In this document: one piece after another, positions 4,655-58,488 of the stretch | Position numbering within the stretch: the stretch's first letter is position 1 | Layout of the letters: every line of letters begins with the position of its first letter | Assembly: GCA_965223905.1 (NCBI GenBank) | Contig: CBDCXV010000011.1 | Span: 352,001 to 416,000 of the forward strand | From: Candidatus Latescibacterota bacterium | GTDB lineage: Bacteria; Latescibacterota; UBA2968; UBA8231 | Direction of reading: 5' to 3' | Length of the DNA: 64,000 bases | Made by a program: the position numbers and the translations under genes | The notes under the pieces: generated by a model | What the model saw: only the letters and a program-made list of their open reading frames with translations | The model's database searches: none | What the model was told of the DNA's origin: nothing

Positions 4655-5000
4655 AGTTCCTTTTTTTGGATCTCGAGGATCGCCTGGGCCTGCTCCAGAC
4701 GCCCCCGCAGACGGGCGTTTTCTTTGCGCAAGCGCTCGTTGTCGCTGGCCACCGGGTCCCGACGACGGCCCTGGGGGCCCCGCGGCGTGGCCAACGCCTG
4801 CAACGAGCCTTCGCGGCGCGCCCGTCGCCAGGCGGCTAGCTGCGAGGAATACAGGCCTTCGCCGGCGCAGTAAGGCGCCTACCTCCCCCGGCGCCCGGCA
4901 GGCATCGGCTTCTTCCAGTACCCGCAGCTTATACTGCGCACTGAAGTGCCGGCGCTTGGCCCTCTCGGGCACTTCCGGGTCCGGACGAGAACCCTCAGGG
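4655..5000 (-). mobile_element. IS3-family OrfA remnant (frameshifted), ending at an A7G slippery site
   Basis: PDPEVPERAKRRHFSAQYKLRVLEEADAC...[frameshift ~4862]...EGLYSSQLAAWRR...LEIQKK; ttttttt at ~4661-4667 reads AAAAAAAG on the minus strand. Confidence 0.85.
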
Positions 5001-5014
5001 GAGGAAACGAGATA

Positions 5015-7561
5015 ATGGTACATGGGGCTTGGGGAAAGACCGTCAAGAAGACAGCAAGCGTTCACCCCCTGGCGCATCACTGTATGGATGTGGCAGCGGT
5101 GTTTGAGCGTGTGGTGGAGTTGCCCGTCATCCGCGACCGGCTTGAGAGGGCTATGGATGCGCGGCTTACGGCTGCGGCATGCCAGCGGCTCTGCGCACTC
5201 GTCTTCCTGCATGACATCGGAAAGCTGCATCCGGGTTTTCAAGCGAAGGGATGGCAGCCCGGCATGTGGAGCTACCCGACCCGAGAACATCTGAAAGAAG
5301 GCTGGGCGTTCCTGGAGCTGGCGGCGAAATGGCCGCAGCACCCATTCCACGAAACGATGCAACGGATAATGGAATGGGGGGAGGCTGTCGTCCCTCTTTT
5401 TTCGGCGATTTTCGCGCACCACGGGCGCCCTGTAGAGCCACCGTCGGCTCCGATGCTTAAGGAGTGGCCGTGTCTTCCACATTACGACTGGCAGGCGGAG
5501 ACCGGTGTGATGTGCGCAGCCCTTCATGGCTGGTTCGCCGGCGCTTTCGAACCCGGGGGTGCACCTCTGGCTGGAAAGCCGCAATTCCACCATGCAATTG
5601 CCGGTCTGGTGTCGCTGGCCGACTGGATCGGTTCGGATACGAGGTTCTTCCCTTTCACCGATCCGTTCGACCTCTCCTACAACTCGGTGACGCGTGATGC
5701 CGCACGGGATGCGCTGAAGACGATCGGTCTGGACCCGGGTGCTGTCGTCACTCGTCCCGCACCGAATTTCCCCACACTGACCGGATTTCCCGAGGCCAAT
5801 CCGGCACAGGCCGTGGTGGGGGCTGTTGGGCCGGAAGCCCGGCTGCTGATCCTCGAAGCCGAAACCGGCTCGGGAAAGACCGAGGCTGCGCTGTGGCGCT
5901 TCACCCAACTTCTGGCGGCAGGAGCAGTGTCGGGACTCTACTTCGCTGTGCCGACCCGCGCCGCGGCCAGGCAGCTTCACGGCCGCGTGGACAAGGCAAT
6001 GCGCCGGGTATTCGGCGCGGCGGCACCCGAAGCCGTACTGGCCATCCCCGGGATGCTGAGGTCCGGCGAGTTCGAAGGCCAAGGCCTGCCCCATTGGGAG
6101 GTTAGATGGGACGACGATACGACATCGGCCCCGCAGCGATGGGCTGCCGAGCACGCAACGCGGTTCCTGGCGGCACCGGTCGCTGTAGGCACCGTTGACC
6201 AAGCGATGCTCGCCGGTCTTCAGGTAAAGCACGCGCACCTGCGCGGCAGCTCTCTCAACCGCAGCCTTCTGGTCATCGACGAGGTTCACGCTTCCGACGC
6301 CTACATGACCGAGGTGCAGGCGCAACTTCTGGAAGGGCACCTAGCCACCGGCGGATACGCGATGCTGATGTCCGCGACCCTGGGCGCCCGAGCGCGGGTG
6401 CGCTGGACAGGGGAACCGTTGCCGGAGTTTGGTACCGCAAGGACGACTCCCTATCCGGCGGTGTGGGTGAAAGGAGAAAACGGTCCGCGTCAGGCGCCGG
6501 ATGGAGGTCGACCCAAGACAGTACATCCGGAGGCCGTGCCGACGATGGACCCGGCGGAGACCGCACGCCGTGCCGTCTCCGCAGCGGAGCAGGGAGCGCG
6601 GGTCTTGGTGATCCGCAATACCGTTGACATGGCGGTCGACACTTGGCGCGGTGTTAGGGAATCCGGTTCCGAAACGCTGCTGATGCAGGCGGGGGCGGGG
6701 CCGGCGCTGCATCACGGACGTTTTGCCGTGGAAGATCGCGCGCTGCTCGACCAGACGGTGGAAGAAGCGCTCGCACCTCTTGGGACTCGGGAAACACAGG
6801 GCTGTATCGTGATTGGGACTCAGACGTTGGAGCAGTCGCTCGACATCGACGCCGATCTTCTGATTACCGACCTCTGCCCGATGGACGTGCTGCTGCAACG
6901 GATTGGACGGCTTCACCGACACGACCTACGCCGGCCCGAAGGCTTCGAGACGGCCCGCGCCCTGGTGCTGCTGCCGGAAGACGGGCTAGACCGCCTCACG
7001 TGCCCGGATTTCGTGAACGGGATTGGAGGGTGGGTAGCTGAGGATGGAGGGTTCAACGGTATCTATACCGATCTCGCGGGATTGGAGCTGACTCGACACC
7101 TGATCGAGCAACCCGTCTGGCGGATCCCGGAGATGAACCGCCGGCTCGTGGAGAGCGCAACCCACCCCGACCGCATCGGCGCCCTGATCGCTGAGAAGGG
7201 AGAGGACTGGGAACGGTACGACAGGCTCCACGGCGGCGCGAAGGCAGCGGAAAGAATGGTTGCCAAGCTTGTCGTTCTGGACCGCGAGGAACCGTTCGAT
7301 GATCACCTACGGTTTCCCAATTCGGACGAGAAGATCATGACCCGGCTGGGGGAGGAGGGTGCGATCCTGGAACTCGATCCGCCGCCGGATGGCCCCTTCG
7401 GCTGCCCGGTGACGCGGATCGCTGTGCCCGCACGATGGTCGCAAGGAATTACAAAAGATGACCGGGTAGAGATTACGCGGGATGAGGCCGGTTTGATCCT
7501 GTCGGTTGCAGAACGCCGATTTCGTTACTCGCGGGAGGGACTGTCAAAATTCATCGGTTGA
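5015..7561 (+). CDS. cas3: CRISPR-associated HD nuclease/helicase Cas3 (type I-E)
   Basis: HHCMDV...LHDIGK HD motifs, AETGSGKT Walker A, DEVH, QRIGRLHR; RBS gggagg before ATG at 5015. Confidence 0.95.
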   Translation: MVHGAWGKTVKKTASVHPLAHHCMDVAAVFERVVELPVIRDRLERAMDARLTAAACQRLCALVFLHDIGKLHPGFQAKGWQPGMWSYPTREHLKEGWAFLELAAKWPQHPFHETMQRIMEWGEAVVPLFSAIFAHHGRPVEPPSAPMLKEWPCLPHYDWQAETGVMCAALHGWFAGAFEPGGAPLAGKPQFHHAIAGLVSLADWIGSDTRFFPFTDPFDLSYNSVTRDAARDALKTIGLDPGAVVTRPAPNFPTLTGFPEANPAQAVVGAVGPEARLLILEAETGSGKTEAALWRFTQLLAAGAVSGLYFAVPTRAAARQLHGRVDKAMRRVFGAAAPEAVLAIPGMLRSGEFEGQGLPHWEVRWDDDTTSAPQRWAAEHATRFLAAPVAVGTVDQAMLAGLQVKHAHLRGSSLNRSLLVIDEVHASDAYMTEVQAQLLEGHLATGGYAMLMSATLGARARVRWTGEPLPEFGTARTTPYPAVWVKGENGPRQAPDGGRPKTVHPEAVPTMDPAETARRAVSAAEQGARVLVIRNTVDMAVDTWRGVRESGSETLLMQAGAGPALHHGRFAVEDRALLDQTVEEALAPLGTRETQGCIVIGTQTLEQSLDIDADLLITDLCPMDVLLQRIGRLHRHDLRRPEGFETARALVLLPEDGLDRLTCPDFVNGIGGWVAEDGGFNGIYTDLAGLELTRHLIEQPVWRIPEMNRRLVESATHPDRIGALIAEKGEDWERYDRLHGGAKAAERMVAKLVVLDREEPFDDHLRFPNSDEKIMTRLGEEGAILELDPPPDGPFGCPVTRIAVPARWSQGITKDDRVEITRDEAGLILSVAERRFRYSREGLSKFIG

Positions 7562-7586
7562 CACATCAACCCCTACATGGTATATT
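7558..7586 (+). promoter_or_regulatory. sigma70-like promoter for the cas8e-cas2 operon
   Basis: TTGACA (7558-7563), 17 bp spacing, TATATT (7581-7586) with an extended -10 TG. Confidence 0.75.
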
Positions 7587-7603
7587 GCTGTTCCAGTTAG
7601 AAT

Positions 7604-7627
7604 AACTATGTAATAGGTTCGACTCCC
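7604..7627 (+). promoter_or_regulatory. Putative Cascade target (AAC PAM plus partial protospacer) of the mini-CRISPR guide
   Basis: AAC-TATGTAATAGGTTCGACTCCC matches 16 of the first 21 nt of spacer 7840-7871. Confidence 0.75.
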
Positions 7628-7704
7628 AATTTTATATATATATTACTCATTTAGTGATGAGATTCAAAAACGGAGAATGCAAACGGAGAATGCAGGAGAA
7701 TGCA

Positions 7705-7920
7705 ATGGTAGGCATACGTTTTGAATTCGAATTGGCAAGACGACTCAAAGGCTGGCTCACTTCCAGACGAGTGACTTTGGCGGTAATGCTCGATTCATGC
7801 ACTACGCGTTTTTCCCGAAACGGCCTTCGGGATAGTCCCGATGTCACAGGGTCGACCCCCCGCGATCGGGTGGATTCCCCATTGTTCATGGGGTCATCTA
7901 AGGCTCGGATCGACCGATGA
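7705..7920 (+). CDS. Possible small upstream ORF overlapping the mini-CRISPR and the cas8e start (ATGA)
   Basis: AGGAG 6 nt before ATG at 7705; in frame with track ORF 7654..7920; no recognisable family. Confidence 0.3.
   Translation: MVGIRFEFELARRLKGWLTSRRVTLAVMLDSCTTRFSRNGLRDSPDVTGSTPRDRVDSPLFMGSSKARIDR
7806..7900 (+). ncRNA. Degenerate single-spacer mini-CRISPR (CreA/CreR-like regulatory crRNA)
   Basis: Pseudo-repeat 1: hairpin CCCGAA-acggcc-TTCGGG plus handle ATAGTCCC (canonical ATAGACCC); exactly 32-nt spacer; pseudo-repeat 2: GGATTCCCCAT-tgttc-ATGGGG. Confidence 0.75.
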
Positions 7921-9455
7921 ACCTCACCACCGATCCAGTTCTGACCCTCGCGGGCGGCGAGAAGGTTACCCTCCCGGCCCTGTTCGCGGCAATGGCGAGG
8001 GGTGAGGTGCGCGGGTTTCCAGCCTTGCGGCCTCATCAGCGCCCCGCGTGGCACATGTTTCTTGTGCAGCTGGGCGCTCTGTCGTTGTGGACTGCGGGTC
8101 GAGACCGCCTGCCAGATGATGCCGCGAGCTGGACGGCGGACCTGCGGAAGCTGACCCCAGACTACCCCGACGATGCGCCGTGGAGCCTATTCATAGAAGA
8201 ACGAAACAAGCCGGCCTTCCTTCAGCCTCCGGATCCGGGTGGCCTCAAGTGGAACACGGTGGAAACGCCCGACGCCCTGGATCTGCTAATAACCGCTCGC
8301 AATCACGACCTGAAGCAAACAGTCGCCAAGCAGGCGACGACGGAGGACTGGGTGTTCGCCCTGGTGTCCCTGCAAACATCTGCTGGCTACGACGGGCGGG
8401 GAAACTGTGGCATCGCGCGTATGAACGGGGGATCATCGAGCCGGCCTATGCTTGGCCTGACTCCCGCGCGAGACGGGGATCTATCTCTCGACCCTTCCGC
8501 ATGGTGGGCGCGTGACGTGGGGCGCCTGGTTACTGCTCGTAAATCGGGGAAACCAGGCCTAGTCGGCAGGGTGGGCGGGCCAGCACTCCTGTGGTGTTTC
8601 GACTGGCCGGAAGGCCACCAACTCGACTTTCGTGAACTGGATCCGTGGTTCGTCGAGGTCTGCCGCAGGGTCCGGCTGATGAACACCAAGGGAGCGGTTT
8701 CTGCTCAGCGCAGTACGTCGAAAACCGCGCGAATCGACGCTAAGGCATTCAAGGGCAACGTGGGCGATCCGTGGGCTCCGGTCCATAAAACTGAAGAAAA
8801 GAGCCTTACGCTTGGCGGGGGTGATTTCGATTACAAACGGCTCTGCGAGCTGATGTTTTCCGGGGATTGGGCAGTACCCCTTCTCGCCCAGCACGGAGGC
8901 GATGAGACCGGAGACATGCTCCTGGTGGCAGAGGCTCTTTCACGCGGGAACAGCAAGACCGAGGGTTTCAAATCCCGCGTCGTACAAGTACCGGGAAAAG
9001 TCGTGCGATTTTTTTCGACGGAGACCGCCGCAAGTCTCTCGAAGGCGCAGCTGGTCGAGATCACCGGATTCGACGCAGCATTGCGGTACGCGATCGCGCT
9101 CGCGGCAGCAGGGGGGGATAGGGACGGCGTAAAGAGGGACCATTTCAAAAGGGCGGCCCCTGCGAGTAAACGATTCGATCGTACAGCTGACCGCCTGTTT
9201 TTTCCGAGCCTTTGGAGACGAGTTGAGGCGAGGGCTTTGACCGACCCGGATGCGGAGGAGACAGCAAAGATCCAGTTCCTGAAAGATCTGTTTGAAGCAG
9301 CAACCGCCGAGCTTGAATCCGCGCTGCCGGCCATCCCTTGCCCGACGATCCAGCGTCCGAGAGCGGAGGCACGGGCTTGGCGGGCCTTCGGGTCCAGGGT
9401 AGGAAAAGAGTATCCTGTGCTTTTTGAGAAGAAGGAGACCCATGGCGCTGCATGA
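7917..9455 (+). CDS. cas8e: Type I-E Cascade large subunit Cas8e/Cse1 (CasA)
   Basis: Position in operon; RPHQRPAWHMFLVQL, ARMNGG, EVCRRVRL, DPWAP motifs. Confidence 0.9.
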   Translation: MNLTTDPVLTLAGGEKVTLPALFAAMARGEVRGFPALRPHQRPAWHMFLVQLGALSLWTAGRDRLPDDAASWTADLRKLTPDYPDDAPWSLFIEERNKPAFLQPPDPGGLKWNTVETPDALDLLITARNHDLKQTVAKQATTEDWVFALVSLQTSAGYDGRGNCGIARMNGGSSSRPMLGLTPARDGDLSLDPSAWWARDVGRLVTARKSGKPGLVGRVGGPALLWCFDWPEGHQLDFRELDPWFVEVCRRVRLMNTKGAVSAQRSTSKTARIDAKAFKGNVGDPWAPVHKTEEKSLTLGGGDFDYKRLCELMFSGDWAVPLLAQHGGDETGDMLLVAEALSRGNSKTEGFKSRVVQVPGKVVRFFSTETAASLSKAQLVEITGFDAALRYAIALAAAGGDRDGVKRDHFKRAAPASKRFDRTADRLFFPSLWRRVEARALTDPDAEETAKIQFLKDLFEAATAELESALPAIPCPTIQRPRAEARAWRAFGSRVGKEYPVLFEKKETHGAA

Positions 9456-11183: not shown

Positions 11184-11902
11184 ACTTTCGCTGGCTGGTC
11201 CTGCGGCTTGAAGCGCCGCTGATGGCCTTCGGAGGCGTGGCAATCGACCAGTTCGGCCCGGTGCGGGATTTTCCAGCGGCCTCCATGCTGGCCGGGCTGA
11301 TTGCCAACGCCTTGGGCTGGCACTGGTCGGACCGAGCCGAGAATCAGGCGATCCAGGATCGTCTGATCTTCGCGGCCCGGCGCGAACGGGAAGGGGACGT
11401 GCTGACCGACACGCAGAACGCACAGCTTGCCAAGACCGACAAGGGCTGGACGACAGGCGGGGAGCCGGAGGGAAGGGCAGGAGCCACCTACGATGCTCCC
11501 CATCGAAAAACCCGCGACTACCACGCCGATTTGTCCGTGCGGGTCGTGCTGCGTCTCGACCCGGAGGAGGAGACGCCAACCCTCGACGCCTTGGCCGAAG
11601 CCTTCGACAGGCCCGCACGGCCCCTGTTTCTCGGTCGCAAGCCCTGCCTACCCTCGGCGTTGTTGCTGGCGAATGGGCCGGACCGCTGGGTGATGGGGGA
11701 TACCGCATTTGAAGCGCTTCGCAGGGTGCCAGGTGAAGGGGAAGGGCTCCGCGCACAGTGGCCGATGGGGCAGGGCCCGGAAGCAGGCGAAAGCGTGGGC
11801 CCTATCGTAGATCTGGCTGACATGAGGAACTGGCGCACTGGTCTGCATGGCGGATCGCGCCAAGTGGTAGAAGGACGGATTTCTCCGGAGAGGAACGAGT
11901 GA
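11180..11902 (+). CDS. cas5: Type I-E Cas5 (CasD)
   Basis: LRLEAPLMAFG...GLIANALG...LFLGRKPCLP. Confidence 0.95.
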   Translation: MNFRWLVLRLEAPLMAFGGVAIDQFGPVRDFPAASMLAGLIANALGWHWSDRAENQAIQDRLIFAARREREGDVLTDTQNAQLAKTDKGWTTGGEPEGRAGATYDAPHRKTRDYHADLSVRVVLRLDPEEETPTLDALAEAFDRPARPLFLGRKPCLPSALLLANGPDRWVMGDTAFEALRRVPGEGEGLRAQWPMGQGPEAGESVGPIVDLADMRNWRTGLHGGSRQVVEGRISPERNE

Positions 11903-12684
11903 TGGAACTCAATCTGGTTCGTGTACCGATCGCTACGCCTTCCCTCGCTCGCTGGGCGGGCGAGCGCGGCTGGGTCCGGCGGCGAGGCAACTTTACGGAC
12001 TTCGACGAAGGCCGCGCCCTCCATCACCTCTTGAATGAAGTATTCGGACCGGGCTCGGTTCGGCCCTTTCGTCTACTTGTGCCGCCCCGGTGCACTTCGG
12101 GAAACCTGTATGCGTACTCCTCCATGGACGCGGATTCCCTGTGCGCAGCCGCTCGCGTTCATGCCCTGCCGGACCATCTTGGCGTGCTGTCGCCCGACCG
12201 GCTGGAGACCAAGTCCATGCCTCAAGACTGGCGACCCGGGCAACAGGTGGGCTTTGACGCTCGCGTGCGGCCCGTCAGGCGATTGGGTAGCGATCTGGAG
12301 AGCCCAGACGGGGTGATCGGCAAAGGCTCGGAAATCGATGCCTTCCTGGTGGAAGCCCTTCGGCGACACCCTGCAGAATCTGGTGGGATGGCCCAGCAGA
12401 ACCGGACCCGCGAGACTGTCTATCTCGACTGGCTGACCGAGCAACTCGCCCCCGCCGCAGAGCTTGAGCGCTCAGCAAGCCGCCTTGCCCGGTTCCGCCG
12501 CGTCCGCGTATCGCGTGGAAACAGCGGACCCGAAGGCCCGGATGCCACGATCCACGGAACATTGACGGTGGGCGATCCAGACGCTTTTGCCTCGTTATTG
12601 GGGCGCGGAATCGGCCGCCATCGGGCCTATGGGTACGGCATGCTGCTGCTGCGTCCGCCCAACCGCCCGATCCCGGAGCGCTGA
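11899..12684 (+). CDS. cas6e: Type I-E Cas6e/Cse3 (CasE)
   Basis: C-terminal G-rich loop GIGRHRAYGYGMLL. Confidence 0.95.
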   Translation: MMELNLVRVPIATPSLARWAGERGWVRRRGNFTDFDEGRALHHLLNEVFGPGSVRPFRLLVPPRCTSGNLYAYSSMDADSLCAAARVHALPDHLGVLSPDRLETKSMPQDWRPGQQVGFDARVRPVRRLGSDLESPDGVIGKGSEIDAFLVEALRRHPAESGGMAQQNRTRETVYLDWLTEQLAPAAELERSASRLARFRRVRVSRGNSGPEGPDATIHGTLTVGDPDAFASLLGRGIGRHRAYGYGMLLLRPPNRPIPER

Positions 12685-13923: not shown

Positions 13924-16900
13924 GCTTCCCCCGCATGCGCGGGGATAGACCCTCAGGACCCCCAGGCAAAGCACCCTGAAACACGCTTCCCCCGCATGCG
14001 CGGGGATAGACCCGCTCCAGGTATTGTCGAAAATGTAACCGGGAAGCTTCCCCCGCATGCGCGGGGATAGACCCCTTACCAGCCGCTCGGAGCAGGAATG
14101 GTCGCAGCTTCCCCCGCATGCGCGGGGATAGACCCCCAACCCCTAGGCAGGGAGAACCACAAAGAATGCTTCCCCCGCATGCGCGGGGATAGACCCACGT
14201 ATGGCACTGGCAGGGATAGGGTTTACGTGCTTCCCCCGCATGCGCGGGGATAGACCCTTGATACTTGTCGCAGACCAATTCAGGTCGAAGCTTCCCCCGC
14301 ATGCGCGGGGATAGACCTGTGTTGGTTTCCTTGTCTCTGATCCAAAATTTGCTTCCCCCGCATGCGCGGGGATAGACCTCATTCAAGCGAGAGGGGAAAC
14401 CGTGCCGATTCGCTTCCCCCGCATGCGCGGGGATAGACCCAAGACGAACAAGGCTTAATCGGACAGCTCGAAGCTTCCCCCGCATGCGCGGGGATAGACC
14501 CGAAGAGAAAGCCTGGCTGGTGCGGTGCTGGCAGCTTCCCCCGCATGCGCGGGGATAGACCCCCGTTCCCCACCGATGCAAGTTCTCCGACCCAGCTTCC
14601 CCCGCATGCGCGGGGATAGACCCATCGCCCAGCTGGTGCAGTCCGGCGCTGTGTTGCTTCCCCCGCATGCGCGGGGATAGACCCTGGCCCGGCTCCAGGC
14701 CGGGGGCGCAGTTGCCGGTTCCCCCGCATGCGCGGGGATAGACCCCCGCCGGGCAGAACTACGAAATCTTCGGCCGTGGTTCCCCCGCATGCGCGGGGAT
14801 AGACCCTCACCGTCCTGCGGCTGATTAGACCGCCACCAGGTTCCCCCGCATGCGCGGGGATAGACCCCAATGAAGGTGACGACGCGCCGAAATTCTCGTG
14901 GTTCCCCCGCATGCGCGGGGATAGACCCCCGTCATCAGCAACAAGGACTGGAACGCTTTGGGTTCCCCCGCATGCGCGGGGATAGACCCTGGAAATCTTC
15001 GTTGGCACCGGATCCGGAACTGGTTCCCCCGCATGCGCGGGGATAGACCTTCGCTTCATCCCTTCGCGGCCGAAGATCCAGGGGTTCCCCCGCATGCGCG
15101 GGGATAGACCCAGGGAGAGATCGAACATGAAATATTGGATCAAGGTTCCCCCGCATGCGCGGGGATAGACCCCTGGGAAGACAAGCCTTCCTCACTTGGG
15201 GAATGGTTCCCCCGCATGCGCGGGGATAGACCCCTCTCGGGGAAGGCGGTCTTCAGAAAGTAAGTGGTTCCCCCGCATGCGCGGGGATAGACCCCCGCAT
15301 GCGCGGGGATAGACCCTGCGTTTTCTCTTGTTCTTTCTCGATTACAATGGTTCCCCCGCATGCGCGGGGATAGACCCGTCAGAGATAAGGGAAAAAACCA
15401 GAAAATGACGGTTCCCCCGCATGCGCGGGGATAGACCCCCATTCAGGAGGGACAAGGCTATGAAGGAGATGGTTCCCCCGCATGCGCGGGGATAGACCCG
15501 TGGCACATCGTTTGCTATGGAAACAGGGTATGGTTCCCCCGCATGCGCGGGGATAGACCCCTGTGGGAGGACGACAAGATCGAGACCAAGGTGGTTCCCC
15601 CGCATGCGCGGGGATAGACCCGCTGCAACGTAGGTCGCGCAGGTTGCCGGAGAGGTTCCCCCGCATGCGCGGGGATAGACCCAAGGCGGCCCATATCTGA
15701 CTTGCGGCGGTCTTGGTTCCCCCGCATGCGCGGGGATAGACCCCAGATGGGTGGAGGGGCCAACAACCTCACCATGGTTCCCCCGCATGCGCGGGGATAG
15801 ACCCTCTCCAGATACATCTATCATTCGTACGAGATAGGTTCCCCCGCATGCGCGGGGATAGACCCCCACAAGCAAGGGAGACAATCCAAGAATGGGCGGT
15901 TCCCCCGCATGCGCGGGGATAGACCCTCGATACCACCTAAAGTAAGACAGGTACCGAAGGTTCCCCCGCATGCGCGGGGATAGACCGATGGGCAATGCGG
16001 TTGCCGATGACGTGGCGGCGGTTCCCCCGCATGCGCGGGGATAGACCCAGGACGAGAGCCTCCTCGTCAAAGGTGTCTACGGTTCCCCCGCATGCGCGGG
16101 GATAGACCCGAGATATTCGGCAGGGCGCGGGCCGCGGCCTTGGTTCCCCCGCATGCGCGGGGATAGACCCACGCCGGAGGACCATGACCAAGAGGTATCG
16201 CCGGTTCCTCCGCATGCGCGGGGATAGACCCCGGTCACGACCCCTTTCTTACGCGGTGCTTGGGGTTCCCCCGCATGCGCGGGGATAGACCCGCTCCGGA
16301 CTACGCTCGCTCGGTCGCTGAATTGGTTCCCCCGCATGCGCGGGGATAGACCCGAAGAAGGACTAAAGGACGAAGACCCCATAATGGTTCCCCCGCATGC
16401 GCGGGGATAGACCCTCGTACATCAATTTCCAAGGCTTGATCCAGATGGTTCCCCCGCATGCGCGGGGATAGACCCTTTTCGACCTGTTCCACTATTCTTC
16501 CCAGGGCGGTTCCCCCGCATGCGCGGGGATAGACCCGTGGGGAACATCCGCCTTGCGGCAAAGGTCAAGGTTCCCCCGCATGCGCGGGGATAGACCCTTG
16601 TCGAGGCGCACGAGTTCGATCTGCTGGCCGGTTCCCCCGCATGCGCGGGGATAGACCCCTGACCGCGCCGACGATGACTCAGGCGGGGATGGTTCCCCCG
16701 CATGCGCGGGGATAGACCCGCGGCGCGTGTGATCGCCAGGAGTCGGAGTGCGGTTCCCCCGCATGCGCGGGGATAGACCCAAAGGGGTCTCCGACACCGT
16801 GGAAACCCAGATGGTTCCCCCGCATGCGCGGGGATAGACCCTCGGCATCAGCATTGCCGTATACGCCTACGTTGGTTCCCCCGCATGCGCGGGGATAGAC

Positions 16901-18428
16901 CCGGGAGCAGAATTGCAATGGCGTTTCTTGGGCAGGTTCCCCCGCATGCGCGGGGATAGACCCGCGGCGTCGGCCAGCACCACTTGAACGGCTTTGGTTC
17001 CCCCGCATGCGCGGGGATAGACCCGGCGCCGACGGGAGCAACGAGCCCATCGGAATGGTTCCCCCGCATGCGCGGGGATAGACCCCTGCCATCCGAGTTT
17101 CTGGGCCTCCATGTACTGGTTCCCCCGCATGCGCGGGGATAGACCCGTGCCATTCCCCGGTGCGCCACCGATCCTTATGGTTCCCCCGCATGCGCGGGGA
17201 TAGACCCCACATGACTCTCTTGCGCGACGCCATGGAACCGGTTCCCCCGCATGCGCGGGGATAGACCCTCAAAGCCGGCACTCCGGTCAAGGCGCGAGAA
17301 GGTTCCCCCGCATGCGCGGGGATAGACCCCATTTCCACCTCGGTATCGACGAGCACCCACAGGTTCCCCCGCATGCGCGGGGATAGACCCATTGATGTAG
17401 GAGCGGATCAAGCCCAAGTCGTGGTTCCCCCGCATGCGCGGGGATAGACCCCTACAAAATTATACACAGGGCGACAATTGGAAGGTTCCCCCGCATGCGC
17501 GGGGATAGACCCAACGCGCTGGTCGACTGGGGCATGTATCAGGTGGTTCCCCCGCATGCGCGGGGATAGACCCGTGGCCGACGATTGACCCGGCCGTAGA
17601 AGATTGGTTCCCCCGCATGCGCGGGGATAGACCGTAGGGCCGGAAGCGTTCCCAGCGGGCTTCCAAGGTTCCCCCGCATGCGCGGGGATAGACCCCTTGC
17701 CCTGGGTTCGGCAGCCCTCCAGGACACGGTTCCCCCGCATGCGCGGGGATAGACCCGATATGCACGTTGTCAGCGGGCTGAACGCCTTGGTTCCCCCGCA
17801 TGCGCGGGGATAGACCCGAGGAAGGGCTACTAAAAGACACCCTTTCCGCGGTTCCCCCGCATGCGCGGGGATAGACCTTGGGAATACCGTCTGGCTTGCC
17901 CCGAAGAAATGGTTCCCCCGCATGCGCGGGGATAGACCCTGGCCGGCGGTGCGCCGGGCCATGGCCCTCGTGGTTCCCCCGCATGCGCGGGGATAGACCG
18001 GCCGCCCCTCTCGAACATGCCAGGCCGGTCTGGGTTCCCCCGCATGCGCGGGGATAGACCCGTGAGCTATCGCACAGTGACCAGAGTCTTCCAGGTTCCC
18101 CCGCATGCGCGGGGATAGACCCCTCCTAGACACTGACGAGGCGGATGGCACCAAGGTTCCCCCGCATGCGCGGGGATAGACCCGCCCTCTACTTCGTCGC
18201 CGGCCGCGGCCACGAGGTTCCCCCGCATGCGCGGGGATAGACCCCTGAAGATCCTCCTGAAGATCCGGCTGATCCGCGGTTCCCCCTCATGCGCGGGGAT
18301 AGACCCGAGGCCGGCAACGGCTTGGACGTGGGGCAGCAGGTTCCCCCGCATGCGCGGGGATAGACCCCCCTGTGGTAGGGTTGAATGCCCGGATCTTATG
18401 GTTCCCCCGCATGCGCGGGGATAGACCC
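13924..18428 (+). CRISPR. Type I-E CRISPR array, ~74 full repeats plus one partial, 61-bp period
   Basis: Repeat GGTTCCCCCGCATGCGCGGGGATAGACCC (first 13 copies begin GCTT), 32-nt spacers (one of 33 nt); counted by hand. Confidence 0.98.
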
Positions 18429-57102: not shown

Positions 57103-58488
57103 TTACAAAGGGTCTGCCTGAAGCGAAACAAGTAACTTCTCGGCGACCTCTTCGAAGGCCGCTCCGCGCGATGCCTTGATGAGGACTACATCTCCCGGAC
57201 GAACCTCTGCGCAGAGCTGCACGGTAAACTCGGCCTTGTTTTCAATGTGCCGCGCGTTTTCGAGGCCTTCTTCAAGAGCTCCCAAGTGGGTAGATTGGCT
57301 GAACTGTCCGCACGTCAACAGCAGCTCGACACCCGCTCTGCTAGCCTGCCGGCCGAGTTCCGCGTGAAGCTCCGGTGCCGAGTCGCCGAGCTCGAGCATA
57401 TCGCCTAGTGCAGCGACACGCCTGCCACCGTTCGCCAACTGCATATCGCCCAGCAGATCGAGGGCCGCTTTCGCAGACCCGGGATTGGAGTTGTAACAAT
57501 CCTTGATGAGGCACGTCCCGTTTTTCCACAAAACCTCGGAGCGCATCGAGGCAGGTTCGAATCCGGCGAGAGCGCGTTCGATCTCGGGCGCCGGAACGCC
57601 ACAGAGATCCCCTACCGCGGCTGCGGCCAGGGCGTTGTACACATTGTGCCTTCCGGGGATCCGGAGTTCGATGCGGATGTTCTGTAGAGAGAGGTGGCCG
57701 CGGCCCTCCTGGTCAAGGACAAGTCCCTCCCCACAAAAATGACTCTCACTATCGAGACTGAAGCCGAGGAGTCTCCCCTTTTTCCTCATGACCTCCCTGG
57801 CTACGACACAGTCATCGACGTTGACGAGAGCCAATGAAGACTCGTCCCCGATATAATCCAGGAGTTCCCCTTTGGCTTTGGCCACCCCCTCTACAGTTTC
57901 AAAAAACTCGAGATGCGCGGTCCCGATGTTCAGCAGGACCCCGATGGTCGGCTGCGCGATCTCGCAAAGGTAGCGAATATCGCCCGCCTTGCGCGCCGCC
58001 AATTCAACTACAATTGCTTCAACTTCGCCTGTCAAGCGCAGAAGCGTCAACGGCACTCCGACTTCGTTGTTTTCGCTTTCCGGCGTCTTGAGGACCCGCA
58101 TGGTGCGTCCCAGGACTGCGGCGGTCATCTCCTTCGTCGTCGTCTTGCCGGCGCTTCCCGTGATCGCTATGACGGGAAGGTCGAACCGCCTGCGGTACTG
58201 TTTGGCGATCTCTCCCAGGGCCTCGAGAGTGTTGGCCACTCGCAACACCGGCTGGTCGCCGGAACCCTTACAGGAGTCTGCGATGGCGGCGCAAGCTCCC
58301 CGGTCGAAGGCCTCCCCGACGAACCGGTTGCCGTCGAAGTTCGGACCACGCAGGGCAAGGAACGCCTCTCCTTCCTGCAAGGTCCGGGTATCGGTACTGA
58401 TGCCCGTGGGAGCAATGCCATCGGCTCCCTCTCCCACCCATTGCCCGTCGACCCAGCGACGAATCTCACCGGCAGTAACCCCTTCCAT
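57103..58488 (-). CDS. murF: UDP-MurNAc-tripeptide--D-Ala-D-Ala ligase
   Basis: TGSAGKTTTKE, NNEVGVP, DCYNSNP, GDMLELG, KASRG. Confidence 0.95.
   Translation of the reverse strand: MEGVTAGEIRRWVDGQWVGEGADGIAPTGISTDTRTLQEGEAFLALRGPNFDGNRFVGEAFDRGACAAIADSCKGSGDQPVLRVANTLEALGEIAKQYRRRFDLPVIAITGSAGKTTTKEMTAAVLGRTMRVLKTPESENNEVGVPLTLLRLTGEVEAIVVELAARKAGDIRYLCEIAQPTIGVLLNIGTAHLEFFETVEGVAKAKGELLDYIGDESSLALVNVDDCVVAREVMRKKGRLLGFSLDSESHFCGEGLVLDQEGRGHLSLQNIRIELRIPGRHNVYNALAAAAVGDLCGVPAPEIERALAGFEPASMRSEVLWKNGTCLIKDCYNSNPGSAKAALDLLGDMQLANGGRRVAALGDMLELGDSAPELHAELGRQASRAGVELLLTCGQFSQSTHLGALEEGLENARHIENKAEFTVQLCAEVRPGDVVLIKASRGAAFEEVAEKLLVSLQADPL

What the first reader, a model, noticed from the sequence alone, without database searches (positions are those of the whole stretch)
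7558..7900. Hidden mini-CRISPR between cas3 and cas8e whose guide targets its own operon promoter region
Seen in sequence: pseudo-repeat 1 (7806-7839) keeps a hairpin and an 8-nt handle ATAGTCCC (array: ATAGACCC). It is followed by exactly 32 nt (GATGTCACAGGGTCGACCCCCCGCGATCGGGT, 7840-7871) and pseudo-repeat 2 (GGATTCCCCATTGTTCATGGGG...). The spacer aligns to 7607-7627 (TATGTAATAGGTTCGACTCCC) at 16/21 nt, with mismatches at 1, 6, 8, 12 and 18, directly after AAC and ~20 nt downstream of a TTGACA-17-TATATT promoter. Established: I-E Cascade flips out every 6th guide base, and partial pairing allows binding without Cas3 cleavage; CreA/CreR-type crRNA-like RNAs repress promoters this way. Inference: Cas6e cuts this guide out of the cas mRNA leader and Cascade represses its own operon, a feedback loop that could also sense anti-CRISPRs. 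The repeats are too diverged for standard array finders.
Basis: partly seen in the sequence, partly recalled or inferred. Interest (0 to 1): 0.93.

Follow-up and report, generated by a model that had tools for sequence, protein, structure and literature searches.

The report
Self-repressing mini-CRISPR upstream of cas8e
A degenerate two-repeat mini-CRISPR sits just upstream of the Cascade genes of a type I-E CRISPR system, and its guide partly matches the operon's own promoter region, so it is a new example of a known self-regulating circuit, with the unexpected extra that a small conserved reading frame runs straight through it.

Summary
PsiR1 (hairpin 7814-7831, handle ATAGTCCC), a 32-nt PsiS (7840-7871) and PsiR2 (7872-7893) lie 23 nt upstream of cas8e. 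PsiS matches 7607-7627 at 16/21 positions (16/18 once positions 6, 12 and 18 are set aside). The site follows AAC and starts 20 nt after a TTGACA-17-TATATT promoter. It is the best non-self match in the 7.9-Mb genome.

A covariance model finds the element at the same place in 20 of 81 sources and in 13 of 80 metagenome loci. In 25 loci with 19 different seeds, the upstream target co-varies with PsiS. Position 6 matches in 0/25, position 12 in 6/25 and position 18 in 3/25. The PAM is AAC or AAT in 24/25.

This is a CreR-type autorepressing mini-CRISPR, a kind published in 2023, so it is a new member and not a new mechanism. No RNA or binding data exist.

One new point: a conserved reading frame of about 70 codons, preceded by a ribosome-binding site, runs through the mini-CRISPR and ends at the cas8e start. 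This suggests that translation and Cas6e processing interact.

The parts
4946..7561 (+). cas3; its stop codon TGA 7559-7561 lies inside the -35 box
   Evidence: Pfam Cas3_HD, Cas3-like_C_2 and DEAD; ORF list
7558..7586 (+). Sigma-70-type promoter: TTGACA, 17 nt, TATATT, with TG before the -10
   Evidence: 11 of 12 matches, the only site in 7300-8100. A TTGAC-like -35 box sits at the same place in related loci.
7604..7606 (+). PAM-like AAC directly 5' of the target
   Evidence: AAC in 19, AAT in 5 and TAC in 1 of 25 related loci.
7607..7627 (+). Target (protospacer-like site) of PsiS: 16/21 identical, 16/18 outside the flipped positions; identity is lost from position 22
   Evidence: best non-self site in the genome
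7668..7705 (+). 13-nt tandem repeat AAACGGAGAATGC, 3.2 copies, specific to this window; it carries the SD AGGAGA (7694-7699) of the leader ORF
7705..7920 (+). Leader ORF of 71 codons that reads through the mini-CRISPR in the frame GAT-AGT-CCC; its stop TGA overlaps the cas8e ATG (ATGA)
   Evidence: 71-aa homologue P0001, 75% identical with the same start
7809..7839 (+). PsiR1: hairpin 7814-7831 plus 8-nt 5' handle ATAGTCCC (7832-7839)
   Evidence: covariance model hit 7809-7896, 82.9 bits
7840..7871 (+). PsiS, the 32-nt guide
7872..7893 (+). PsiR2: GGATT plus hairpin CCCCAT-TGTTC-ATGGGG (7877-7893), the predicted 3' handle
   Evidence: helix 2: 99% of cells paired; pair 74/80 seen as UA, AU, CG and UG
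7832..7893 (+). Predicted mature CreR-like RNA, 62 nt, if Cas6e cuts at the 3' base of each hairpin
   Evidence: Inference from the type I-E Cas6e cleavage rule (recalled knowledge) applied; not shown
7917..9455 (+). cas8e (no Pfam hit, but 80 homologues found, each next to a cas3-like upstream region)
11899..12684 (+). cas6e, the predicted processing enzyme
   Evidence: Pfam PF08798, E 6.5e-27
13924..18428 (+). Canonical CRISPR array, 74 repeats; last repeat base is C in 67, T in 4 and G in 3

Best explanation
The element is a CreR-type regulatory mini-CRISPR lying in the leader of the Cascade operon of a type I-E system.

Proposed mechanism:
1. Transcription starts at the strong promoter at the end of cas3, or reads through from cas3, and carries PsiR1-PsiS-PsiR2 into RNA.
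2. Cas6e is predicted to cut after each hairpin. This would release a 62-nt crRNA-like RNA with handle ATAGTCCC, a 32-nt guide and a 22-nt 3' hairpin.
3. Loaded into Cascade, the guide pairs with about 17-21 nt next to an AAC PAM, about 14 nt downstream of the likely transcription start.
4. Pairing stops after position 21. Cascade should therefore bind without the full R-loop that recruits Cas3, and act as a roadblock that lowers transcription of its own genes and of the guide itself.
5. When Cascade is titrated by many crRNAs or blocked by anti-CRISPRs, repression should relax.

Shown here: the anatomy, its conservation, hairpin covariation, guide/target covariation with 6-nt periodicity, and PAM conservation. 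Inferred: processing, binding, repression and the absence of cleavage.
For: 1. Anatomy is exact.

2. Homology to real repeats: the covariance model R1, built only from 17 mini-CRISPRs, also hits 35 repeat-spacer-repeat units of the window's true array at 12-35 bits.

3. Conservation at the same place, about 20-45 nt before the cas8e start.
- 20 of 81 sources at E<=1e-6. 17 of these were training rows; L015, L019 and L065 were new.
- 6 weaker hits at the same place.
- 13 of 80 independent metagenome loci at E<=1e-6.

4. Hairpin covariation: 89% of cells paired, 14 cells changed on both sides, 0 of 500 shuffles as high, and slid controls at 25-59% paired.

5. Guide/target covariation.
- The per-locus best site beats shuffled guides at p<=0.014 in 13 of 19 loci.
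- It also does so at p<=0.01 in 4 of 8 held-out loci.
- In the combined set of 25 loci with 19 seeds, positions 6, 12 and 18 match in 0, 6 and 3 of 25, and positions 19-32 in 3-10 of 25. None of these positions was used to pick the sites.
- The PAM, also not used to pick the sites, is AAC in 19, AAT in 5 and TAC in 1.

6. The target overlaps or follows the core promoter. In the 14 of 25 loci where a -35/-10 pair passed my rule, the gap from the -10 to the PAM is -6 to 26 nt. In L014, L019, L096 and L097, whose -35 box starts only 17-22 nt before the protospacer, the target occupies the -10 position.

7. The 7607 site is the single best non-self match in the genome.

8. The mechanism has been shown experimentally for type I-E in Salmonella enterica (passages of bioRxiv 10.1101/2023.03.10.532045). 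Mini-arrays between cas3 and cas8 that target the cas8 promoter were reported in about 19% of bacterial I-E loci (passages of PMC10120712).
Against: - There are no expression, processing or binding data. No RNA run holds the region.
- The window's pair has non-wobble mismatches at seed positions 1 and 8. Mismatches at these positions weaken binding in E. coli Cascade (recalled knowledge).
- The position-1 G/T mismatch recurs in L022, L035 and L093, so it is tolerated or selected, but the position-8 mismatch is seen only in this window.
- The closest relative (G020/L013, Cas8e 92% identical) lacks the whole intergenic element: cas3 nearly abuts cas8e. The element is therefore dispensable.
- L015 has the mini-CRISPR but no detectable target in its 7.4-kb locus.
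- L019 and L085 are not significant on their own (p 0.37 and 0.25).
- The minimum-free-energy fold of 7800-7916 shows the PsiR1 hairpin but not the PsiR2 hairpin, and is not better than shuffles (z -0.5).
- The PAM of this system could not be derived from real protospacers.
Confidence: 0.85

Rival explanations
1. CreTA-like addiction module. The guide (a CreA-type antitoxin RNA) mainly represses a toxic product encoded directly after the target, namely the leader ORF or its RNA. Loss of Cascade would then kill or arrest the cell.
For: - The order promoter, target, SD-ATG small ORF, mini-CRISPR is the order expected for a toxin gene under CreA control.
- Some leader peptides are hydrophobic (L025, L027).
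- L018 carries an extra 69-aa hydrophobic ORF with a strong SD right after the target.
- The window ORF contains codons that should be rare in a 64% GC genome, ATA and two AGA-CGA pairs (read; the rarity is an inference).
Against: - The ORF reads through the mini-CRISPR and ends at cas8e, so the same transcript encodes Cascade.
- The peptides are poorly conserved and not consistently hydrophobic.
- There is no run of rare codons right after the start codon, as in known CreT RNAs (recalled knowledge).
- G020 lost the whole region and kept an intact cas8e, which is hard to reconcile with an addiction module.
Confidence: 0.06
2. An ordinary small protein gene of about 70 aa upstream of cas8e. The repeat-like features are relics and the RNA is not processed or used as a guide.
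For: - Frame A is open in 19 of 19 loci through PsiR1, PsiS and PsiR2.
- In the 99 nt upstream of PsiR1, frame A has 1 stop in total, against 31 and 18 in the other two frames.
- An ATG preceded by an SD-like motif is present in 22 of 26 loci, 83-110 nt before PsiR1 in most.
- A gene caller predicted the same 71-aa product in a metagenome, 75% identical and 85% similar.
- WIN and L014 share ARRL through four synonymous codon changes (read).
Against: - The stems change by compensatory pairs while the encoded residues change non-conservatively (SRNGFRD versus SRRSHPD; loop residues S/P/K/N).
- The guide co-varies with an untranslated upstream site with 6-nt periodicity and a conserved PAM. No protein constraint explains this.
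- pN/pS of the N-terminal part is 0.2-1.4, with 15 of 19 pairs between 0.4 and 1.1.
- There is no Pfam family for the ORF.
Confidence: 0.03
3. A decaying remnant of an array or a duplicated repeat with no present function in this genome. The guide/target match is an inherited trace.
For: - Two seed mismatches in the window.
- The nearest relative lacks the element.
- L015 lacks a target.
Against: - The element is kept at the same place across loci whose Cas8e is only 50-70% identical, from MAGs labelled as several phyla.
- The hairpins, the handle, the 32-nt spacing and the pairing are all maintained while the sequence turned over (19 seeds).
- The window has the longest paired stretch of all loci, up to position 21.
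Confidence: 0.05

Closest known systems
CreR of the Salmonella enterica type I-E system (Liu et al., bioRxiv 10.1101/2023.03.10.532045; passages read)
   Same: - A degenerate two-repeat mini-CRISPR in the region upstream of casA/cas8e.
- PsiR1 keeps the 8-nt 5' handle and PsiR2 keeps the 3' hairpin.
- The guide is partly complementary to a PAM-flanked site at the cascade promoter.
- No toxin gene is evident.
- The proposed role is autorepression that senses crRNA load and anti-CRISPRs.
   Different: - There: 15 consecutive matching nt, PAM AAG, target about 140 bp upstream of casA.
- Here: a discontinuous match with positions 6, 12 and 18 unpaired, PAM AAC or AAT, target 232-310 bp upstream (469 bp in L018).
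- Here the mini-CRISPR lies downstream of its target inside the leader, 23 nt before cas8e, and inside a conserved ORF.
- No experiment has been done here. I could not see the paper's figures or supplements, so the exact position of the Salmonella creR relative to its target is unknown to me.
Regulatory mini-arrays between cas3 and cas8 of type I-E and I-F1 loci (Shmakov et al., PMC10120712; passages read), including E. coli K-12
   Same: - Mini-array in a long cas3-cas8 intergenic region.
- Partial match of 10 bp or more to the cas8 promoter region, with a PAM.
- Mismatches at every sixth position were noted there too.
   Different: - In E. coli K-12 my model finds the mini-array on the strand opposite to cas3 and casA, overlapping the 3' end of cas3 (L173 1982-2065, 17.5 bits). 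Here it is co-oriented with cas8e and directly in front of it.
- That pipeline discarded repeat-like hits that overlap annotated ORFs, so ORF-embedded elements like this one could have been missed wherever the ORF was annotated.
- I could not see their supplementary tables, which may already list members of this clade.
CreTA of Haloarcula hispanica type I-B (as described in passages of the Liu et al. preprint)
   Same: A crRNA-like RNA from a degenerate mini-CRISPR guides Cascade to repress a promoter by partial pairing. CreA also represses the cas8 promoter.
   Different: - CreA is coupled to a toxic RNA, CreT. No toxin is shown here.
- Different subtype and domain of life.
Long tracrRNA (tracr-L) autorepression of Cas9 (mentioned in the passages)
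   Same: A non-canonical guide with limited complementarity turns the effector into a repressor of its own promoter.
   Different: It is a class 2 system with a tracrRNA-derived guide. It is not a mini-CRISPR and does not use Cas6e or Cascade.

Membership tests
CreR / regulatory mini-array (crRNA-like RNA) of type I systems | Two repeat-like sequences flanking one spacer-like sequence of canonical length, inside a cas locus | tested here: met
   PsiR1 7809-7839, PsiS 32 nt, PsiR2 7872-7893, between cas3 and cas8e. Model R1, built from the mini-CRISPRs, also hits 35 true array units.
CreR / regulatory mini-array (crRNA-like RNA) of type I systems | PsiR1 keeps the 5'-handle nucleotides and PsiR2 keeps the Cas6-binding hairpin | tested here: met
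   Handle ATAGTCCC versus ATAGACCC (7 of 8). The handle columns are invariant or nearly so in 17 loci. PsiR2 helix: 99% of cells paired, with covariation at pair 74/80.
CreR / regulatory mini-array (crRNA-like RNA) of type I systems | Guide partially complementary, from its PAM-proximal end, to a PAM-flanked site in or next to the promoter of effector cas genes | tested here: met
   16 of 18 non-flipped positions within 1-21, AAC PAM, site starting 20 nt after the -10. It is the best site in the genome.
CreR / regulatory mini-array (crRNA-like RNA) of type I systems | Guide and target co-vary among related loci | tested here: met
   25 loci, 19 seeds. Positions 1-5 and 7-11 match in 20-25 of 25. 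Positions 6, 12 and 18 match in 0, 6 and 3 of 25. PAM AAC or AAT in 24 of 25. One locus, L015, has no target.
CreR / regulatory mini-array (crRNA-like RNA) of type I systems | Cas6-dependent maturation into a crRNA-like RNA | not testable with these tools
   No RNA run is listed for the region. An intact cas6e is present.
CreR / regulatory mini-array (crRNA-like RNA) of type I systems | Effector-dependent repression of the target promoter without DNA cleavage | not testable with these tools
   Inferred from the loss of pairing after position 21 (window) or about position 17 (family).
CreTA (CRISPR-repressed toxin-antitoxin) | A toxin gene whose promoter is the target of the guide | tested here: inconclusive
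   A small SD-ATG ORF follows the target. It runs into cas8e, is poorly conserved and has no toxin family hit. Toxicity was not tested.
Canonical CRISPR array | Three or more near-identical repeats with spacers that fully match foreign DNA | tested here: not met
   Only two diverged repeat-like units. No match to the repeat with 4 or fewer substitutions outside 13924-18428.
Racr / viral Cracr (mobile-element-borne repeat mimics) | Encoded on a phage or plasmid | tested here: not met
   The element lies inside the chromosomal cas operon. The family pattern had 0 hits in viral contigs.

The most novel reading that the evidence does not exclude
The mini-CRISPR is dual-coded. It sits inside a translated leader ORF of about 62-73 codons in most loci that starts about 100 nt upstream and ends at the cas8e start codon.

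Ribosomes crossing the PsiR1 and PsiR2 hairpins would compete with Cas6e. Cas6e cleavage would cut the ORF, leaving a non-stop 5' fragment, and would uncouple cas8e from the only good ribosome-binding site in the leader. Free Cas6e would then lower Cascade synthesis after transcription as well as through the guide.

That would be a two-layer feedback, RNA-guided transcriptional repression plus processing against translation. As far as the passages I read show, this has not been described for CreR elements.
Probability: 0.3. Interest if true: 0.75.

Novelty: new member of a known kind. Interest (0 to 1): 0.5.

Why it matters
- It extends CreR-type self-repression of type I-E systems from enterobacteria to a Cas8e clade spread over MAGs labelled Latescibacterota, Bryobacterales, Spirochaetia, Trueperaceae and several proteobacterial groups.
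- It gives an unusually clean natural experiment: 19 different guide seeds, each with a matching target. This reveals the pairing rules of Cascade in vivo. Positions 6, 12 and 18 are free, pairing is needed only to about position 15-17, and the PAM is AAC or AAT.
- The conserved reading frame through the mini-CRISPR is a testable hint that translation and crRNA-type processing are linked at the start of the Cascade operon.
- For annotation, it shows that such elements can hide under a predicted small 'hypothetical protein'.

Tried and rejected
- Rfam scan of 7000-8500 at E<=10: no family.
- RNA evidence: no RNA holder is listed for window 7300-8300; two runs of one study hold the DNA.
- Single-sequence fold of 7800-7916: not better than shuffles, and the PsiR2 hairpin is not in the minimum-energy structure. 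I relied on covariation instead.
- tRNA-fragment idea: the target resembles a tRNA T-arm, and several of the genome-wide runner-up sites look like tRNA 3' halves. ARAGORN finds no tRNA in 7300-8000, and targets in other loci are unrelated, so I dropped the idea.
- Mobile-element or repeat idea for the AT-rich 350-nt insert: there is no other copy in the genome, and the best other match is 25 nt at E 0.4.
- Deriving the PAM from protospacers in the window's own genome: 9 non-array hits, one good (28/29, PAM CGC). This is not informative.
- Phage-borne mimics: the family pattern had 0 hits in viral contigs.
- Protein-level selection on the leader ORF:
  - Codon-position counts of three ungapped close pairs sum to 12:12:14.
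  - pN/pS is 0.2-1.4.
  - The constraint on the peptide is weak or absent, so I do not claim a functional protein.
- Rows dropped:
  - L065, L167 and L168 (model hits with indels) and the weaker hits were not put through the target or ORF analyses.
  - L094 and L171 (identical to L093) and L102 (identical to L101) were dropped.
  - L104 (same guide and target as L103) was dropped from the combined table.
  - L015 is reported as a miss and is not in the 25.
  - L020 has the N-terminal part of the ORF in another frame.
- Bias: the 15 positions used to choose each target are inflated by that choice. Positions 6, 12, 18, 19-32 and the PAM were not used.
They may list members of this clade or note the ORF.
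- Print check for the ORF overlap: it rests on term searches inside two papers only and on passages of a third, which I did not search for translation or uORF terms.


Full report
**Setting.** The window holds a complete type I-E locus on the + strand.
- cas3 is at 4946-7561 and cas8e at 7917-9455.
- The further Cascade genes follow, including cas5 and cas6e (11899-12684), then cas1 and cas2.
- An array of 74 repeats lies at 13924-18428. Its consensus is GGTTCCCCCGCATGCGCGGGGATAGACCC, and 71 of 73 intervals hold 32-nt spacers.
- The genome is 7.9 Mb at 64% GC.
- The closest genome with the same Cas8e (92% identity) is a MAG labelled Candidatus Latescibacterota.

**The observation.**
- PsiR1 has a 6-bp hairpin at 7814-7831, followed by ATAGTCCC (array handle ATAGACCC).
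- PsiS is exactly 32 nt (7840-7871).
- PsiR2 is GGATT plus a 6-bp hairpin, CCCCAT-TGTTC-ATGGGG, and ends at 7893. That is 23 nt before the cas8e ATG.
- The only promoter-like site in 7300-8100 is TTGACA-17-TATATT with a TG extension at 7558-7586. The cas3 stop codon lies inside its -35 box.
- PsiS matches 7607-7627 at 16 of 21 positions. The mismatches are at 1, 6, 8, 12 and 18, and AAC precedes the site.

**It is not chance.**
- The handle-type motif GGGATAGNCCC occurs 13 times outside this array on both strands of the genome, and 3 of those lie in a second array.
- The 7607 site is the best non-self match of PsiS in the window.
- It is also the best in the genome: 16 of 18 non-flipped positions, with six sites at 15 of 18 as runners-up.
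- None of 500 shuffled guides reached its score in the 480 nt upstream.
- The 350-nt cas3-cas8e spacer is AT-rich, 33-40% GC at 7550-7750, and has no other copy in the genome.

**Related loci.** A scan with Cas8e gave 80 loci from species-representative genomes.
- A blind scan for hairpin pairs 42-49 nt apart found, in 16 of these loci, a pair about 100 nt before cas8e. The pattern was CCC..GGG-ATAGNCCC, then 32-33 nt, then GATTCCCCA..GGGG. Pairs elsewhere in the loci were few and unrelated.
- The 17 sequences (window included) align without gaps.
- For the two hairpins, 89% of cells form pairs and 14 cells have changes on both sides. No shuffle of 500 reaches this, and sliding the partner drops pairing to 25-59%.
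- Covariance model R1, built from these 17, finds the element upstream of cas8e in 20 of 81 sources at E<=1e-6. Three of those are new loci.
- It gives six weaker hits at the same place, and it recognises 35 genuine repeat-spacer-repeat units of the window's array. This ties the element to real CRISPR units.
- In 80 further metagenome loci that played no part in building the model, 13 have hits at E<=1e-6 and 18 at E<=0.01, all directly upstream of cas8e.

**Guide and target.** For each locus I took the best site in the 480 nt upstream. Scoring used only the 15 non-flipped positions among positions 1-18.
- In 18 of 19 genome loci the best site lies on the same strand, 232-310 nt before cas8e (469 nt in L018, which has an insertion), and follows AAC, AAT or TAC.
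- 13 of the 19 beat shuffled guides at p<=0.014 and 3 more at p 0.05-0.07. L019 and L085 are not significant alone (p 0.37 and 0.25).
- L015 has no target, and none turned up anywhere in its 7.4-kb locus.
- The seven distinct held-out metagenome loci show the same picture.
- In the 25 loci with a target, the guides fall into 19 different seeds. Match counts by position are:
  - positions 1-5: 21-25 of 25;
  - position 6: 0 of 25;
  - positions 7-11: 20-25 of 25;
  - position 12: 6 of 25;
  - positions 13-15: 16-21 of 25;
  - positions 16-17: 11-12 of 25;
  - position 18: 3 of 25;
  - positions 19-32: 3-10 of 25.
- The PAM is AAC in 19, AAT in 5 and TAC in 1.
- Positions 6, 12, 18, 19-32 and the PAM were not used to choose the sites, so these figures are unbiased.
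- This is the signature expected of Cascade pairing, in which every sixth base is flipped out, with selection for only about 15-17 nt of complementarity.
- At the free positions the target tends to A or T and the guide to G or C, each drifting to its local composition. This may explain why position 6 never matches.

**Promoter context.**
- A TTGAC-like -35 box lies just after the cas3 stop in most loci.
- Where a -35/-10 pair passed my simple rule (14 of 25 loci), the PAM starts -6 to 26 nt from the end of the -10.
- In L014, L019, L096 and L097, whose -35 box starts only 17-22 nt before the protospacer, the protospacer occupies the -10 position itself.
- In the window the site starts 20 nt after the -10, so a bound Cascade would sit at about +11 to +45.
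- The window's protospacer begins TATGTAAT, which is itself -10-like, and TTGCTG lies 16-18 nt upstream. A second, overlapped promoter is therefore possible (inference).

**What it is.** The anatomy and the comparative signal fit the published CreR and regulatory mini-array mechanism.
- Liu et al. showed that a Salmonella enterica I-E mini-CRISPR represses PcasA through E. coli Cascade. The match there is 15 nt with an AAG PAM, and the repression is relieved by excess crRNA or by AcrIE8 (passages).
- Shmakov et al. found mini-arrays in about 19% of bacterial I-E loci, typically in long cas3-cas8 spacers. The partial matches lie in the cas8 promoter region, and they noted sixth-position mismatches (passages).
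- The finding is therefore a new member of a known kind.
- The architecture differs from E. coli K-12. There my model finds the mini-array on the opposite strand at the 3' end of cas3. Here the element is co-oriented with cas8e, lies downstream of its own target, and is part of the leader that it represses. Guide and Cascade would therefore be under the same negative feedback.

**Weak points for this particular window.**
- Seed positions 1 and 8 are true mismatches, G versus T and C versus T, with no wobble.
- The position-1 G/T mismatch is shared with L022, L035 and L093, so it seems tolerated. The position-8 mismatch is unique to the window.
- The window does have the longest pairing of all loci, up to position 21.
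- The nearest relative, G020, has lost the whole region.
- Nothing is known about expression.

**An unexpected layer.** In the frame that reads the handle as GAT-AGN-CCC, the sequence is open in all 19 genome loci for 62-183 codons. It ends within 10 nt of the cas8e start.
- In the 99 nt before PsiR1 this frame has 1 stop in total, and 18 of 19 loci have none. The other two frames have 31 and 18 stops. Shuffled sequence gives on average 5 of 19 loci without a stop.
- Inside PsiS the counts are 0 against 11 and 13.
- When the distance from the mini-CRISPR to cas8e changes by 1 or 2 nt (L014, L015, L025), the frame relative to the mini-CRISPR is kept and another stop next to the cas8e start is used.
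- 22 of 26 loci have an in-frame ATG preceded by an SD-like motif. It lies 83-110 nt before PsiR1 in 19 of these 22 (119-212 nt in WIN as first picked, L019 and L069), and those 19 ORFs have 62-73 codons.
- In the window the fitting start is ATG 7705, with SD AGGAGA at 7694-7699. This gives 71 codons ending in the ATGA overlap with cas8e.
- A 71-aa product with the same start, 75% identical, exists in a public metagenome.
- The peptide itself is weakly constrained or unconstrained:
  - pN/pS is 0.2-1.4;
  - codon-position differences sum to 12:12:14;
  - there is only a loose N-terminal pattern of alternating hydrophobic residues.
- The encoded residues change freely where the stems change by compensatory pairs. 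The RNA constraints therefore come first, and the frame is kept open on top of them.
- My reading, at a probability of about 0.3 for a regulatory role, is a translated leader ORF. It would deliver ribosomes to cas8e, and its translation would compete with Cas6e processing.
- Simpler roles are possible. One is protection of a 300-nt leader from Rho-dependent termination.
- I found no mention of such an ORF in the passages returned by my term searches in two CreR papers. I did not search Shmakov et al. for translation terms, and I could not see figures or supplements.

**Verdict.** The mechanism is already known, the member is new, and one feature (the ORF through the mini-CRISPR) deserves an experiment.

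Noticed in passing
window 7705-7920 (and the same place in L014-L127): A conserved leader ORF preceded by an SD-like motif, 62-73 codons in most loci, reads through the mini-CRISPR and ends at the cas8e start. Frame-specific absence of stop codons holds in 19 of 19 loci.
   Followed up: yes
L013 / L002 (G020), upstream of cas8e: The closest relative (Cas8e 92% identical) lacks the promoter, the target and the mini-CRISPR. The cas3 stop lies about 30 nt from the cas8e GTG. The element is therefore present or absent among close kin.
   Followed up: partly
L018 2599-2808: One related locus has an extra 69-aa hydrophobic ORF with a strong SD, inserted between the guide's target and the leader ORF. 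It is a candidate guide-repressed cargo or toxin gene.
   Followed up: no
window 7668-7705: A 13-nt tandem repeat AAACGGAGAATGC (3.2 copies) creates three SD-ATG units just before the leader ORF. It is specific to this window and lengthens the leader by about 40-80 nt compared with most relatives.
   Followed up: partly
window 14624-14655 versus genome C9:431004-431032: An array spacer matches the organism's own chromosome at 28 of 29 positions (spacer positions 4-32). The flanking trinucleotide is CGC, not AAC. This may be a tolerated self-target or a prophage remnant.
   Followed up: no
genome C10: about 57400-57600: A second small array with the same handle motif at 61-nt spacing (four hits, at 57400, 57461, 57522 and 57583).
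   Followed up: no
window 15265-15300: An irregularity in the main array: one 54-nt interval that contains a partial repeat (ATAGACCCCCGCATGCGCGGGGATAGACCC), and one 33-nt spacer.
   Followed up: no
L173 1982-2065 (E. coli K-12, + strand of the locus, antisense to cas3 and casA): The model built from this clade picks up the E. coli K-12 mini-array at the 3' end of cas3 (17.5 bits). It lies on the opposite strand compared with the arrangement in the window.
   Followed up: partly
window 7607-7627 and genome-wide runner-up sites: The window's guide and target resemble a tRNA T-arm (GGTTCGANTCC). Three of the six 15/18 runner-up sites look like tRNA 3' halves. They lack the PAM, and no tRNA is predicted in 7300-8000.
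   Followed up: partly
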